Source of the DNA: Clostridia bacterium
Lineage (GTDB): Bacteria; Bacillota; Clostridia; Oscillospirales; Acutalibacteraceae
DNA length: 64,000 nt
Direction: 5' to 3'
Assembly (NCBI GenBank): GCA_017432165.1
Contig: JAFRJS010000084.1
Span: forward strand, 19,408 to 83,407
The notes below the pieces were generated by a model. It made no database searches. It was given only the letters and a program-made list of their open reading frames with translations, and had not been told where the DNA came from. How positions within the stretch are numbered: position 1 is the stretch's first letter; each line of letters begins with the position of its first letter. This document shows positions 51,263 through 57,746 of the stretch, piece by piece. The translations under genes and the position numbers were made by a program.

Positions 51263-53329
51263 TTAAAGTAAATATCCATATTCGCCAAAATCGGATTTAG
51301 AAACCATTTTTCCTTGTTTTTTTATTTCGTATTCAAGGCCTTTAATAATATGCTCCATTTTAACTTCGTTTGACTCGGAAGCCGCAATAAAACTGGACGT
51401 AATTACAATATTTTTTATGCTGCCGCCTGAAATTTCAAACTGCTTGGCAAGAAAATCAAAATCAACATCTTCTGAGATGGGCGTTTCTTTTGGGTACATT
51501 TTTTGCCATATTTCTTTTCTGAGCCCGGCGTCCGGAAGCGTAAAATGCACCACATAATTTATTCTTCTGAAAAACGCTTTATCAATATTCCCGATAAAAT
51601 TCGTGGTCATAATGGTAACGCCGTTGTATTCTTCCATTTTTTGCAAAAGATAAGATGTTTCCACGTTGGCGTTTTTGTCGTGCGAATCTTTAACTTCTGT
51701 TCTTTTTCCAAAAATAGCGTCTGTTTCATCAAAAAGTAAAATTACATTGCTTTTTTTCGCACTTTCAAATATCTCTCCAAGATTTTTTTCTGTTTCCCCT
51801 ATGTATTTGGAAACAACTTTAGAAAGGTCAACTCTGTATATCTCTAGCCCAAGTTCATTCGCCACAACTTGCGCAGCCATAGTTTTACCCGTACCGGATG
51901 GCCCGGAAAATAGCATGCTAAGGCCTCTGCCGTATAATACTTTTTTGTCCATTCCCCATTTATCATAAACTATATTTTTGTATTTTATTTGGTTACACGC
52001 ACGAATAATCAGCTTTTTTTGCTCCTCCGGCAAAACAAGCTCGTCCCATGTGTGTTTTTTCTTTATAACCGTAGCTTTATCGGAAATTTTTCCTGCCACT
52101 TGTTCGTAAGCACAGCGGCATAATATTTCGCTGCTGATTGCATTGGCTTTTTGCCAAGCTCTTTCATTTTCCGCACATTCGCATGTACTTATTATTTGCA
52201 AAGGAGTAAACTCAAATTTATTTGCAATTTCACTTATATTTACAGTTTTATCAGTCTTTAAATCAAACAAATGCTTTTTCCAAATTTTAAAACTTTCATC
52301 CAAATTTAAATCTTCAATTTCCACACTCAAGCATTTTCCGCAAGAAAAATCCTCTTTTACACTAATTTTCTTGTCCGACGTAACAAAAATTATCTTTGAA
52401 TACTTTGTAGCTACGTTTAATATAAAATCTTTGTAACATTCTTCTATTTCTTTTTCGAAACTGCCGTAGTTACAAAAAGAAATATAAAATTTGTTGCAAA
52501 GAGCAAAACGCATGGCAGACATCAAAACGTTGTAGCTTTCTTTTTTCATATCTTTAAAGCCTAACAAATCTACCTCTAAAAGTCCTTTTTTCAAAATTTC
52601 ACAGCTTCGCCTTACCAAAGTTTTTTTGCCTATACCTTTTTCTCCATATAAAAAGAATAAAATATTTTCATCGCCGGAAAAATCATTTGAAAAATCAGCA
52701 AATTTTCTTGCTAAATCTTCTCTGATTATCAATTTTTCGCTTGTTTCACAATTCAAACAAGAAAAATTTTTGCCTTCAAAAGTATCTATTGAATTTCCCA
52801 CAATACTTTTAAAAATATAGTCATCAATTTCCAGACCGCTTTCTTTGAAACAAAGCGAACTGAGTTTTTCTTTTAAACAAACGGTTATATCATAAAAATT
52901 TTCAATGCTGTAAATTTCTTTTTTAAAAAAATATATTTTAATTAAATCCTGATAACTAAAATTAAGGTCTTCCCCGCCTAAAATCTGAGCATATTTTTTA
53001 AGCTCCTGAGGGTTAAAACGCTTAATTAAAACAACTATTAAACAAAACCATTCAAGATCTGAAAAAACAAACGTTTCTTTGATGTATTTTCCGGCAAAAA
53101 AGCTCTCTTTTGAGCATTCCAGCCTAGATTTTATATAAAAATTTGCTTTTGCAAAAGCATTTAAAGCATCGTTTTCAAAACTTTCAAAGTTTTTCTTTTT
53201 GTCAGCTTCCAAATAATAATCTAAAATTATCAAAACTGCGTTTATTTCATCAGCTAAATAATCTTTGTAATTATCATAAGACCGAAATATCATCTTTTTT
53301 GAAAAAAAATTTTTAAAAATCTTATTCAT
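51263..53329 (-). CDS. AAA+ ATPase, eCIS Afp15/Pvc15-like (long N-terminal region plus C-terminal classical AAA module)
   Basis: 688 aa. GLSMLFSGPSGTGKTMAAQVVANELG (Walker A), VILLFDETDAIFGKR (Walker B), TIMTTN (sensor 1). A degenerate upstream P-loop-like GEKGIGKKT. Adjacent to DUF4280 and DUF4255 genes. Confidence 0.85.
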   Translation of the reverse strand: MNKIFKNFFSKKMIFRSYDNYKDYLADEINAVLIILDYYLEADKKKNFESFENDALNAFAKANFYIKSRLECSKESFFAGKYIKETFVFSDLEWFCLIVVLIKRFNPQELKKYAQILGGEDLNFSYQDLIKIYFFKKEIYSIENFYDITVCLKEKLSSLCFKESGLEIDDYIFKSIVGNSIDTFEGKNFSCLNCETSEKLIIREDLARKFADFSNDFSGDENILFFLYGEKGIGKKTLVRRSCEILKKGLLEVDLLGFKDMKKESYNVLMSAMRFALCNKFYISFCNYGSFEKEIEECYKDFILNVATKYSKIIFVTSDKKISVKEDFSCGKCLSVEIEDLNLDESFKIWKKHLFDLKTDKTVNISEIANKFEFTPLQIISTCECAENERAWQKANAISSEILCRCAYEQVAGKISDKATVIKKKHTWDELVLPEEQKKLIIRACNQIKYKNIVYDKWGMDKKVLYGRGLSMLFSGPSGTGKTMAAQVVANELGLEIYRVDLSKVVSKYIGETEKNLGEIFESAKKSNVILLFDETDAIFGKRTEVKDSHDKNANVETSYLLQKMEEYNGVTIMTTNFIGNIDKAFFRRINYVVHFTLPDAGLRKEIWQKMYPKETPISEDVDFDFLAKQFEISGGSIKNIVITSSFIAASESNEVKMEHIIKGLEYEIKKQGKMVSKSDFGEYGYLL

Positions 53330-53348
53330 AATATATTCCTTTAAAAAA

Positions 53349-53720
53349 TTATTTTACCATAACCTTAGTAATTCCGGGGTTCATAATAGAAATCACTCCG
53401 CCATAATTGCAAATAAGTTTGCAGCTGTTATTAAGAGCAGGGACGTTGCCCACAAGGACTGTCGGCGAACCCGGCATCCATGGTGCAGCAGTATTTGGAA
53501 CGCATGGAGCTTGTGGCATAACAGGCGGCTTAACAGCAGGATTCCCAAGTGATTTGCACATACCAAAAGGCATAATATTAACCATCGGTTTATTGTCTTG
53601 TATCGTAGCAATAGGTTTATTTTCCCCAAAAGCCTTTTTTTGCGGCAAAATCATAAGAGGGGCAGGCGTTAAACCCATTGTGCACATACATTGCGCTCCC
53701 ATTCCAACCAAAATTCCCAT
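53349..53720 (-). CDS. DUF4280 PAAR-like protein (candidate spike-tip)
   Basis: 123 aa. GAQCMCTMGLTPAPLMIL...IATIQDNKPMVNIMPFGMCKSLGNP...PCVPNTAAPWMPGSPTVLVGNVPALNNSCKLICNYGGVISI matches the Cys/Gly pattern of DUF4280. Confidence 0.8.
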   Translation of the reverse strand: MGILVGMGAQCMCTMGLTPAPLMILPQKKAFGENKPIATIQDNKPMVNIMPFGMCKSLGNPAVKPPVMPQAPCVPNTAAPWMPGSPTVLVGNVPALNNSCKLICNYGGVISIMNPGITKVMVK

Positions 53721-56520: not shown

Positions 56521-56546
56521 TTATTTTATTCCCCCAAAAGTAGTTT

Positions 56547-57746
56547 TTAATCTTTATGAATTTGATTTGGAACAGACGGTTTTTCCAGTTGAACCAAATT
56601 ATAATAAAGAACTAAAAATTCATGATCCGCAACATACTTGTAAGATATATCATAGCACTCGGCAAAAAATTCAGCCGACATATAAACAACATCATTATAA
56701 TTAAGAATCGGCACAGGAATGCTTCTTGGCTCATCATTTAAATATGCTTGGTTCGTGCCGCCTTCAATTTCCAGTGTTTTTCCGGGGGATTGTATTACCA
56801 TTGTTGCGTTGTTGTACATATATTCAATATCTGCATCAATATACTGGTATAAATCTTCAATAGCAACCAAAATGTGCCCGTCATACATAATCGGCGCATG
56901 TTTCATCGGGAAATATCCTCCAAAAAATACAACCTGCTCCGGAAGAACGGAAAGTGCTTTATTGCCCATTTTTGAAAAATCGTCCGAATCGTCAACCATT
57001 CTATCATAATCAGCAGGTATATAATTTTGTTTTTCATATGATTCAAGTATTGTAATAGCCACAGAAATAGTGTCTTTAGCCAAATCTAACCTTTCATTGT
57101 CAATCATATCATCTTCAATGAGTTTACTTAAAAATAAAATATCCAAAAGACTTCTTTGCTGAATAGTAAAAGAGGAAATATCTTTTAAATCAAAAACAGT
57201 TTCAACTTCACTCATAAGTTCTTGTAAATTTTTTACTTTTTCTTCGTCTAAAGACTCGAGCACAAATAGGCATTCGTCAGAAACCGCACCACGCAAATCT
57301 TCCACAATGGTTGAAACCGAAAGAATTTTTGTAACCTCTGTATCCACATTTGCAATAGAGGAGTTTTTCTTTTTCATTGCGTTTATTAAACCGTTTACAC
57401 TGTCTAATTCTTTTTGAAGTTCGTATTTTTTCTTCATATTTGCGGCATATTCTTGTAGCGCCGAATTGCCCGAAAGCTGTGCACGATAGGCAATTTCGTC
57501 AAGTTTTTCAAGTATGTTGTCAATATTTCCGGATACTTTTAAATCTTCCACAATTTTGTCTATTTCAGCGGCGCTGAGGTCATTTTCTGAATTTGAATTA
57601 TTACCGGAAGAATTATTATTGCTATTAGAAGAACTATCTACCGCCTCGGTAATTGTATAAACAGTCAAAACCACAGTGGCAAATATAATTGTAATCATCA
57701 AAATATTTCTGCTCAATTTACAGAAAAAATTTTTTATCTTATTCAT
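56547..57746 (-). CDS. Membrane-anchored coiled-coil protein with a C-terminal copper-amine-oxidase-N-like (stalk) domain
   Basis: Start moved to ATG 57746 after AGAGGGGGA. TM helix ILMITIIFATVVLTVYTI, an Asn/Ser-rich linker, then a helical region. C-terminal HAPIMYDGHILVAIEDL...LNDEPRSIPVPILNYNDVVYMSAEFFAECY resembles Cu_amine_oxidN1 repeats. Confidence 0.6.
   Translation of the reverse strand: MNKIKNFFCKLSRNILMITIIFATVVLTVYTITEAVDSSSNSNNNSSGNNSNSENDLSAAEIDKIVEDLKVSGNIDNILEKLDEIAYRAQLSGNSALQEYAANMKKKYELQKELDSVNGLINAMKKKNSSIANVDTEVTKILSVSTIVEDLRGAVSDECLFVLESLDEEKVKNLQELMSEVETVFDLKDISSFTIQQRSLLDILFLSKLIEDDMIDNERLDLAKDTISVAITILESYEKQNYIPADYDRMVDDSDDFSKMGNKALSVLPEQVVFFGGYFPMKHAPIMYDGHILVAIEDLYQYIDADIEYMYNNATMVIQSPGKTLEIEGGTNQAYLNDEPRSIPVPILNYNDVVYMSAEFFAECYDISYKYVADHEFLVLYYNLVQLEKPSVPNQIHKD

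What the first reader, a model, noticed from the sequence alone, without database searches (positions are those of the whole stretch)
51263..57746. Satellite contractile-injection-system operon (cap, PAAR-like tip, AAA+ ATPase) with no sheath, tube or baseplate, about 50 kb from the only visible sheath gene
Six co-oriented genes with 19-30 nt gaps are bracketed by hairpin terminators at 57957..57976 and 51230..51257. In order they encode a stalk-domain membrane protein, a DUF4255/Afp16-like cap, an unknown helical protein, a CarbopepD_reg-like protein, a DUF4280 PAAR-like protein and an Afp15-like AAA+ ATPase. In described eCIS loci (Afp, PVC, MAC, AlgoCIS, Streptomyces CIS), the cap, the ATPase and the spike tip are encoded contiguously with sheath, tube, VgrG-like spike and gp25/gp6-like baseplate genes. 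None of those genes is present here. The only sheath gene in the window starts at 289 and reads leftwards out of the window. The intervening 49 kb or so is core housekeeping DNA, including the whole S10-spc-alpha cluster. Three explanations are possible: a physically split CIS, a degenerating remnant, or a stand-alone cap/tip/ATPase module with a different role.
Basis: partly seen in the sequence, partly recalled or inferred. Interest (0 to 1): 0.8.

Follow-up and report, generated by a model that had tools for sequence, protein, structure and literature searches.

The report
Detached end-module of split injection system
This six-gene operon carries the cap, spike tip and assembly ATPase of a phage-tail-like injection machine whose other structural genes lie 50 kb away, a split layout shared by dozens of related gut Clostridia, so it is a real but only moderately unusual variant of a known system.

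Summary
Window 51263-57746 (minus strand) is a terminator-bracketed six-gene operon: membrane-anchored Cu_amine_oxidN1 protein, Pvc16_N/DUF4255 cap with a 157-aa acidic tail, a fast-evolving helical protein, a CarboxypepD_reg-like protein, a DUF4280 PAAR-like protein and a two-domain AAA+ ATPase. A sheath gene starts at 289 and reads out of the window; the DNA between is housekeeping.

I recovered the rest of the sheath locus from other assemblies. It has sheath, tube, tube-like protein, putative tape measure, gpD-like hub, spike, gp25, two baseplate-J proteins, Tail_P2_I and a CIS13-like fibre. It has no cap, PAAR or ATPase. The two loci are therefore complementary.

In 10 more distant species the same module sits directly downstream of the fibre gene (ancestral contiguous layout). 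In 23 closer species with a full 10 kb of upstream flank it is detached.

Five of the six genes are under purifying selection (dN/dS 0.01-0.17), so this is not a remnant.

Best reading: a physically split lineage-II eCIS. Split eCIS loci (Chen 2019) and an eCIS in this Acutalibacteraceae "energy parasite" clade (2025 preprint) are already described. This is a new variant, not a new kind.

The parts
56547..57746 (-). S1: 399-aa protein with one N-terminal hydrophobic segment (signal anchor or signal peptide), a helical region and a C-terminal Cu_amine_oxidN1 domain. It is the first gene of the operon and ends in a conserved C-terminal motif, PSVPNQIxK.
   Evidence: Pfam hit 1e-12. Start codon and RBS read. 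N-terminus MNKIKNFFCKLSRNILMITIIFATVVLTVYTI. Orthologue directly upstream of the cap in 41 of 64 species loci. dN/dS 0.04-0.06.
55462..56520 (-). S2: tube/sheath terminator cap (Afp16/Pvc16/Cis16 family). Residues 1-195 are the Pvc16_N domain. Residues 196-352 are an acidic tail (55% D+E) that begins with the conserved linker FxTxIKEEDIDDEYTxRPDEDEDE.
   Evidence: Pfam Pvc16_N 2.5e-27. 637 homologues among cluster representatives. Tail composition, and its presence only in the detached clade. dN/dS 0.03-0.04.
54572..55438 (-). S3: 288-aa all-helical protein of unknown family in a variable slot between the cap gene and S4. It is a candidate cargo or strain-specific accessory protein.
   Evidence: No Pfam or NCBIfam hit. 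Present in only a few species. 62% identical to L029, whose neighbouring genes are 97-98% identical. dN/dS 0.50-0.67. Shared N-terminal motif ERMRQxW. AF2 model unusable, pLDDT 49.
53747..54541 (-). S4: 264-aa protein with an N-terminal CarboxypepD_reg-like beta-sandwich and an uncharacterised C-terminal part. It is the gene most tightly linked to the cap and is probably a cap-associated accessory.
   Evidence: Pfam 30 bits, just below cut-off. A profile of 24 orthologues matches only beta-sandwich domains in PDB. Follows the cap in 50 of 64 loci; it remains next to the cap in L068 and L070, where no S1, PAAR or ATPase gene is found in the 8.9-10.6 kb downstream that was examined. dN/dS 0.05-0.13.
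53349..53720 (-). S5: DUF4280 PAAR-like protein, the presumed sharpening tip that sits on the spike encoded in the main locus.
   Evidence: Pfam DUF4280 4.4e-33; NCBIfam IglG PAAR-like 3.9e-15, below that model's cut-off. Orthologues in 36 of 64 loci. No PAAR-like ORF in the main locus in six frames.
51263..53329 (-). S6: 688-aa two-domain AAA+ ATPase (Afp15/Pvc15-like). D1 has a Walker-A-like GEKGIGKK at residue 229. D2 has canonical GPSGTGKT at 476 and Walker B VILLFDE at 529.
   Evidence: Pfam AAA 1.1e-31. The D2 domain is Cdc48/p97-like. The best full-length plasmid homologue (31% identity over 97% of the length) lies inside a cyanobacterial eCIS locus. Motifs located. dN/dS 0.08-0.13.
51235..51260 (-). 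Intrinsic-terminator-like hairpin plus T-run that ends the operon, 3 nt after the ATPase stop codon.
57956..57977 (-). Terminator-like hairpin of the upstream STAS/anti-sigma gene pair. It marks the upstream boundary of the operon.
57790..57818 (-). Promoter-like element TTGCAA-17 nt-(TGa)GAAAAT, ending 44 nt upstream of the S1 start codon. Function is inferred, not shown.
   Evidence: Read. The same element is conserved upstream of S1 in L030, L050, L051 and L053, with variants in L036 and L055.
1..289 (-). First 96 codons of the sheath gene of the main structural locus. The gene continues beyond the left edge of the window.
   Evidence: Full 575-aa sheath and the downstream genes recovered in L001 and L011.
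496..1407 (-). 303-aa lysine-rich protein of unknown function, directly upstream of the sheath gene. It is conserved at this position in three species and is probably the first gene of the main operon.
   Evidence: A conserved TGnTATAAT-type element lies upstream of it.

Best explanation
The operon is the detached distal module of a lineage-II extracellular contractile injection system (eCIS) whose structural module starts at window position 289 and extends leftwards out of the window.

The main locus supplies sheath, tube, tube initiator, putative tape measure, hub, spike, gp25, baseplate wedge proteins and a fibre. The satellite operon supplies in trans the three functions the main locus lacks:
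- S2, a Cis16/Afp16-type cap that terminates tube and sheath polymerisation and stabilises the extended sheath.
- S5, a DUF4280 PAAR-like cone that caps the spike.
- S6, an Afp15/Pvc15-type AAA+ ATPase that assists assembly and cargo loading.

S1 (membrane or surface protein) and S4 (beta-sandwich protein tightly linked to the cap) are lineage-specific accessories inherited from the ancestral contiguous cluster. S3 is a fast-evolving passenger in a variable slot and a possible cargo.

Shown here: the gene identities, the complementarity of the two loci, the ancestral contiguity, and purifying selection. Inferred: co-assembly into one particle, the roles of S1, S3 and S4, and any regulatory meaning of having a separate promoter.
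For: 1. Domain assignments are above or near curated thresholds.
2. The complete main locus in two species carries every structural class but no cap, PAAR or AAA+. This holds by Pfam and NCBIfam and by six-frame tblastn and profile search, where all hits have E > 0.2.
3. Both loci lie on one 135-kb contig, 52.3 kb apart (ERZ28654478 scaffold_59). They also co-occur in three further metagenomes (ERZ28653894, SRR12529042, ERZ27256819).
4. In 10 species with caps 26-53% identical, the order is Tail_P2_I - CIS13 - LysM - HAMP - MORN - S1 - cap - S4 - PAAR - ATPase in one cluster. In all 23 species with caps at least 61% identical and a full 10 kb of upstream flank, no structural gene is nearby.
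5. dN/dS is 0.01-0.17 for S1, S2, S4, S5 and S6, the same range as the neighbouring alr gene.
6. GC content matches the flanks, so there is no sign of recent transfer.
7. The full-length ATPase homologue on an Oscillatoria plasmid lies in an eCIS locus.
8. A 2025 preprint reports that an eCIS is conserved in this small-genome Acutalibacteraceae clade.
Against: - No expression, proteomic or imaging data exist; co-assembly is inferred from complementarity.
- The rest of the genome was not scanned, so a second cap/ATPase set or a second sheath locus elsewhere cannot be excluded.
- Module content varies between species. The PAAR-like gene is missing from the module in L050, L051, L053, L062, L066 and L069. 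Only cap and S4 remain together in L068 and in L070 (from the complete Ca. Improbicoccus genome); only 10 kb on either side of the cap was examined there.
- One strain variant has a stop at ATPase codon 194.
- No shared promoter or operator motif was found between the two loci.
Confidence: 0.8

Rival explanations
1. Stand-alone module: the membrane protein, cap-like protein, PAAR-like protein and ATPase have acquired a role independent of the sheath locus, for example a membrane-associated complex of their own.
For: - The module has its own promoter-like element and terminators.
- It is found without nearby structural genes in at least 23 species.
- It travels with membrane or sensor-like proteins (S1, and the HAMP and MORN proteins).
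- Its cap has gained a long acidic tail only in the detached clade.
- Module content varies: PAAR is lost from the module in some species, and only cap and S4 are found at the locus in L070, from the Improbicoccus genome.
Against: - The main locus lacks exactly these three otherwise near-universal eCIS functions.
- Relatives keep all the genes in one cluster.
- The cap domain and PAAR-like domain are conserved at dN/dS 0.01-0.04 in one or both comparisons, consistent with retained structural contacts.
- No non-CIS role is known to me for DUF4255 proteins (my own knowledge; not searched in the literature).
Confidence: 0.08
2. Degenerating remnant of a once-contiguous eCIS that no longer functions.
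For: - Progressive fragmentation across the clade: contiguous; then LysM-HAMP-MORN-S1...ATPase; then S1...ATPase; then cap-S4 only.
- The host lineage has reduced genomes.
- One strain variant has a premature stop in the ATPase, and another has a truncated S3.
Against: - All six ORFs are intact in the window.
- Five of them have dN/dS 0.01-0.17, the same range as the neighbouring housekeeping gene alr.
- Intact orthologues persist across dozens of species at 45-98% identity.
- The main locus is also intact in two species.
Confidence: 0.05
3. The operon serves a different contractile system elsewhere in the genome (a second eCIS or a prophage tail), and its position 50 kb from this sheath gene is coincidental.
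For: Only 64 kb of this genome, plus about 20 kb to the left recovered from other assemblies, was examined. Some bacteria carry several eCIS loci (Chen 2019).
Against: - The nearby main locus is missing precisely these parts.
- The contiguous relatives join this module to orthologues of this very main locus: M13 and M14 are 43-61% identical in the closest contiguous loci and 27-35% in the more distant ones.
- Genomes of this clade are small, reported as about 0.7-1.0 Mb.
Confidence: 0.05

Closest known systems
Afp (Serratia entomophila) and PVC (Photorhabdus) extracellular contractile injection systems
   Same: The same parts list is present: sheath, tube, gp25, baseplate J, spike, PAAR-like tip, fibre, Afp16/Pvc16 cap with the Pvc16_N domain, and an Afp15/Pvc15-type two-domain AAA+ ATPase.
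   Different: - Afp and PVC are single contiguous operons. Here the cap, tip and ATPase form a separate operon about 50 kb away.
- The spike is split into gpD-like and base_V proteins.
- There are extra accessories (S1, S4).
- The cap carries a 157-aa acidic tail.
- The host is a Gram-positive, reduced-genome Clostridia lineage.
'Split loci' class of eCIS in dbeCIS (Chen et al. 2019, PMC6899500), including the Amoebophilus asiaticus T6SSiv
   Same: Components of one machine are encoded at two sites more than 30 kb apart. This has been reported in lineages I and II, in Gram-positive and Gram-negative bacteria and in archaea.
   Different: - Those cases were defined by separation of the tube gene (afp1/5) from baseplate J (afp11). 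Here the structural module is intact and only the cap/tip/ATPase end-module is detached.
- The split here is conserved across a clade of at least 23 species and continues to fragment further.
eCIS of the small-genome Acutalibacteraceae clade (rumen MAG-71, Ca. Improbicoccus; bioRxiv 10.1101/2025.07.29.667580)
   Same: Probably the same system and the same host clade: low GC, an ATP/ADP translocase in the window, and cap relatives in an Acutalibacteraceae MAG and in Ca. Improbicoccus. The preprint places the clade's sheath in subtype IIb.
   Different: The preprint's text reports presence and completeness of core genes. It does not mention that they lie in separate loci: the words 'separate' and 'operon' do not occur in it. 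Its figures could not be read.
Streptomyces coelicolor CIS with the membrane protein CisA (PMC12237407)
   Same: A lineage-II system in a Gram-positive host, with a minimal Cis16-only cap and a cluster-encoded single-pass membrane protein needed for function.
   Different: - CisA has a long cytoplasmic N-terminus and a periplasmic substrate-binding-like domain. S1 has only about 15 residues before its hydrophobic segment and carries a Cu_amine_oxidN1 domain.
- No sequence relationship between the two was tested or is claimed.
- The Streptomyces cluster is contiguous.

Membership tests
eCIS (Afp/PVC-like, lineage II) | Sheath, tube, gp25, baseplate J and a VgrG-like spike are all present. | tested here: met
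   Found in the main locus (L001/L011): Phage_sheath_1, Phage_T4_gp19 (two genes), GPW_gp25, Baseplate_J/TIGR02243 (two genes), Phage_base_V, and a weak Phage_GPD hit.
eCIS (Afp/PVC-like, lineage II) | eCIS-specific genes that set it apart from T6SS and R-pyocins: DUF4255 cap, Afp12/13-like genes, AAA+ ATPase. | tested here: met
   Pvc16_N 2.5e-27 and AAA 1e-31 in the satellite operon. Tail_P2_I and CIS13_fam (1.5e-25) in the main locus.
eCIS (Afp/PVC-like, lineage II) | All core genes in one contiguous cluster: within 12 kb of each other (Geller 2021) or within 30 kb (Chen 2019). | tested here: not met
   The ATPase gene ends at 51263 and the sheath gene starts at 289, a gap of about 51 kb of housekeeping DNA. 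The locus therefore falls into Chen's 'split loci' exception class.
eCIS (Afp/PVC-like, lineage II) | Forms a released, contractile particle. | not testable with these tools
   Needs electron microscopy or proteomics. The organism is known only from metagenomes.
Afp16/Pvc16/Cis16 cap | An N-terminal Pvc16_N (DUF4255) domain scoring above the Pfam gathering score. | tested here: met
   96.2 bits against a cut-off of 27, covering profile positions 5-179 of 180.
PAAR-like DUF4280 | A DUF4280 domain scoring above the gathering score. | tested here: met
   114.6 bits against a cut-off of 26.3, covering positions 2-108 of 109. There is also an IglG-like match at 3.9e-15, below that model's equivalog cut-off.
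Afp15/Pvc15-type ATPase | A classic AAA+ D2 domain with Walker A and B motifs, preceded by an N-domain and a degenerate D1, encoded in an eCIS cluster. | tested here: met
   AAA domain at residues 472-597, GPSGTGKT at 476, VILLFDE at 529, D1-like GEKGIGKK at 229. Encoded in-cluster in contiguous relatives. A full-length homologue lies in a cyanobacterial eCIS locus. Direct comparison with the Afp15 or Pvc15 sequences was not done.
Prophage tail / R-type tailocin | Phage head, terminase or lysis genes nearby; no DUF4255 cap or AAA+ ATPase. | tested here: not met
   Both loci are flanked by housekeeping genes (lepA, hemN, spoIIR, alr, fba). A cap and an ATPase are present.
T6SSiv (Amoebophilus type) | Cytoplasmic, membrane-anchored arrays that are not released. 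| not testable with these tools
   There are only hints: a split locus, a putative intracellular host lineage, and membrane proteins in the module.

The most novel reading that the evidence does not exclude
The detachment is functional rather than accidental. In a clade of putative intracellular 'energy-parasite' Clostridia that is widespread in human and ruminant guts, the cap, tip and ATPase have become a separately promoted 'finishing' operon, together with a surface/membrane protein and a newly acquired acidic cap tail. Completion or loading of pre-made injection particles could then be licensed independently of synthesis of the structural parts. The slot after the cap gene would hold exchangeable cargo.
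Probability: 0.2. Interest if true: 0.55.

Novelty: new variant of a known kind. Interest (0 to 1): 0.4.

Why it matters
- Survey methods miss this layout. eCIS surveys find loci by physical linkage of core genes: 12 kb in Geller 2021 and 30 kb in Chen 2019. A clade-wide layout in which the cap, tip and ATPase lie tens of kb away will be scored as incomplete or missed. This may contribute to the reported depletion of eCIS in gut microbiomes.
- The system is common in guts. The cap module occurs in very common human-gut contigs; one cap variant is indexed in 300 blocks of the assembly collection.
- It gives a natural series for study. The stepwise fragmentation (one locus, then two, three or more) shows which genes must stay together (cap with S4) and which need not. 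It also points to S1, S4, and the HAMP and MORN proteins as lineage-specific accessory components worth structural study.
- It does not reveal a new kind of machine.

Tried and rejected
- AlphaFold2 on single sequences gave unusable models: S4 pLDDT 36 and S3 pLDDT 49. No fold search was run.
- Cap alignments A1 (33 sequences) and A2 (8 sequences) were too diverse for the genome scan. A 5-sequence alignment worked.
- An exact-sequence look-up of the 688-aa ATPase found nothing on record. S4 was used instead.
- A profile of S4 against PDB sequences matched only generic CarboxypepD_reg-like beta-sandwiches and no CIS component.
- I looked for a shared promoter or operator between the S1 upstream region and the sheath or 303-aa gene upstream regions. 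Each is conserved across species, but they do not resemble each other.
- I tested whether the three paralogous genes at 2445-6812, or the LysM, HAMP and MORN genes of relatives, link the two loci. The paralogues are confined to this species. The LysM, HAMP and MORN genes are absent from the window and from the main locus.
- Recent horizontal transfer of the operon is rejected: its GC content is 0.27-0.43, against 0.27-0.40 in the flanks.

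
Full report
**Observation**

The region holds six co-oriented minus-strand genes with 19-30 nt gaps. Pfam results:
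- S1 (56547-57746): Cu_amine_oxidN1, 1e-12.
- S2 (55462-56520): Pvc16_N, 2.5e-27.
- S3 (54572-55438): no hit.
- S4 (53747-54541): CarboxypepD_reg, 30 bits, just under the cut-off.
- S5 (53349-53720): DUF4280, 4.4e-33.
- S6 (51263-53329): AAA, 1.1e-31.

NCBIfam adds an IglG-type PAAR-like match for S5.

S1 starts at ATG 57746 behind an AGAGGGGG ribosome-binding site. Terminator-like hairpins lie at 57956-57977 and 51235-51260. A sheath gene starts at 289 and leaves the window. The DNA between is housekeeping: an S10 leader and genes for L3, L2, SecY, RpoA, PNPase, PPase, GlnRS and FBA.

**The other half of the system**

I looked up the gene beside the sheath and then walked with the spike protein. 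This recovered the whole sheath locus from other assemblies (L001, L011). Its order is:

303-aa K-rich protein; sheath (575 aa); tube (175); a 124-aa protein; DUF6760 (40); tube-like protein (555); 215-aa protein; 720-aa putative tape measure (inferred from size and position only; no family hit); gpD-like hub (380); Phage_base_V spike (264); gp25 (128); two baseplate-J/TIGR02243 proteins (1013 and 720); Tail_P2_I (387); CIS13-family fibre-like protein with Big_2 (594); then spoIIR.

Neither the precomputed Pfam hits, my own Pfam and NCBIfam scans, nor six-frame tblastn and profile searches find a cap, PAAR-like or AAA+ gene there (all E > 0.2). A species whose spike is 84% identical has the same layout (L015).

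Both loci lie on one 135-kb contig, 52.3 kb apart. They also co-occur in three further metagenomes.

**Comparative evidence**

A scan of one genome per GTDB species with a cap alignment returned 64 loci. I classified them by tblastn with all satellite and main-locus proteins.
- Contiguous layout: ten species with caps 26-53% identical carry Tail_P2_I - CIS13 - (LysM) - HAMP protein - MORN protein - S1 - cap - S4 - DUF4280 - ATPase in one cluster. One of them has an ADP-ribosyltransferase toxin just downstream.
- Detached layout: all 23 species with caps at least 61% identical and a full 10 kb of upstream flank have no structural gene nearby.
- Within the detached group, about 14 species keep LysM-HAMP-MORN in front of S1.
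- The window, L029-L031, L034-L036, L044, L051 and L063 keep only S1 to S6.
- L068 and L070 (from the complete Ca. Improbicoccus pseudotrichonymphae genome; only 10 kb either side of the cap was examined) keep only cap and S4 at the locus.
- Six species lack the PAAR-like gene in the module.
- Intestinibacillus chromosomes (L080, L082) also show a module with no structural gene within 10 kb.

The layout is therefore a derived, stepwise fragmentation of an ancestral single cluster. The first breakpoint lies between the fibre gene and the LysM gene.

A very common human-gut species has the five-gene module (without S3) in a quite different housekeeping neighbourhood. Sheath homologues of 75% identity, with the same main-locus order and no cap upstream, are likewise common in gut assemblies.

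**Selection**

Against L030 and L029, dN/dS is 0.04-0.06 (S1), 0.03-0.04 (cap domain), 0.05-0.13 (S4), 0.01-0.17 (S5) and 0.08-0.13 (S6). This matches the neighbouring alr gene (0.06-0.07). S3 runs at 0.50-0.67. GC content matches the flanks. This argues against both decay and recent acquisition.

S3 belongs to a small, highly divergent helical family. It occupies a slot between the cap gene and S4 in only a few species, and members share an N-terminal ERMRQxW motif. Its behaviour fits cargo or a strain-specific accessory, but this is inference.

**Other features**

- The ATPase has a canonical D2 domain (GPSGTGKT, VILLFDE) and a D1 with GEKGIGKK.
- Its D2 resembles Cdc48/p97.
- Its best full-length plasmid homologue lies in an Oscillatoria eCIS locus beside baseplate, gp25 and DUF4157 genes.
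- A TTGCAA-17-GAAAAT element upstream of S1 is conserved in several species. It does not resemble the conserved elements upstream of the main operon, so co-regulation is untested.

**Comparison with what is known**

- Chen et al. 2019 already define 'split loci' (13 genomes, plus the Amoebophilus T6SSiv).
- Geller et al. 2021 call eCIS operons by 12-kb linkage and report depletion in human-associated microbes.
- A 2025 preprint reports a conserved eCIS in a small-genome, low-GC Acutalibacteraceae clade with an ATP/ADP translocase. That clade includes Ca. Improbicoccus, a rumen ciliate-associated MAG and many human-gut MAGs. The preprint's text does not mention a split.
- The window carries such a translocase, and its cap relatives include Improbicoccus and an Acutalibacteraceae MAG. 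It probably belongs to that clade.
- The Streptomyces CisA work shows that a cluster-encoded membrane protein can be essential for firing. S1 may be analogous, but its topology differs and no homology is claimed.

**Verdict**

This is a physically split lineage-II eCIS (confidence about 0.8). The split of the cap/tip/ATPase end-module, its conservation across a clade, its further fragmentation and the acidic cap tail make it a new variant of a known kind. It has practical consequences for eCIS surveys. It is not a new type of system.

The main limitations are the lack of expression or particle data, the unscanned remainder of the genome, and the failure of structure prediction for S3 and S4.

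Noticed in passing
window 33135-34646 (-): A TLC-family ATP/ADP transporter (Pfam 2e-139) lies directly upstream of the S10 ribosomal-protein leader. Together with about 30% GC, it places the organism in the putative 'energy parasite' Acutalibacteraceae clade described by Takahashi 2023 and by the 2025 rumen-ciliate preprint.
   Followed up: partly
window 2445-3716, 3776-5431, 5487-6812 (+): Three paralogous genes (423, 551 and 441 aa) share an N-terminal region of about 180 aa (47-58% identity). Their C-terminal parts are divergent, K/E-rich and coiled-coil-like, and they have no Pfam family. They lie divergently next to the main CIS locus, bracketed by tRNA-Val (2195-2271) and tRNA-Glu/tRNA-Met (6872-7044). 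Among the loci fetched they occur only in this species.
   Followed up: partly
window 1715-2146 (-): A PemK/MazF-type toxin gene lies two genes upstream of the sheath gene. It is conserved at that position in three species whose other neighbours differ (L001, L015, L021).
   Followed up: no
It starts with the conserved motif FxTxIKEEDIDDEYTxRPDEDEDE. Its function is unknown.
   Followed up: partly
L008 5427-6093 (ERZ27256819 k141_850652); L007 7919-8746: A strain variant about 8% divergent at the DNA level has a TGT-to-TGA stop at codon 194 of the ATPase. Another sample has S3 shortened to 275 aa by a point change. These could be real decay in some strains or assembly errors.
   Followed up: partly
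window 322-343 (-), upstream of the sheath start: The sequence GGAAAGGAGTTGAAAGGTTCTT, about 35-55 nt upstream of the sheath ATG, is conserved in three species (window, L015, L021), although the spacer around it differs. It could be a leader or regulatory element.
   Followed up: no
L001 14118-15785 (main locus, left of the window): The second tube-like protein carries a K/E-rich repeat extension of about 340 aa in this species (555 aa in total). The orthologue is 416 aa in L015 and 264 aa in L021.
   Followed up: no
L078 14538-15953: In a relative with the contiguous layout, a 471-aa protein with an ADP-ribosyltransferase exoenzyme domain (8.7e-11) lies two genes downstream of the ATPase. It is a likely effector. 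The window has only an ASCH-domain gene at that position, beyond the terminator.
   Followed up: no
window 57992-58744 (-): An anti-sigma-kinase-like (HATPase_c_2) and STAS gene pair, with alr upstream of it, lies directly upstream of the operon. The same synteny is kept in L029, L030 and L051 but not in other species. No sigma-factor gene is adjacent.
   Followed up: no
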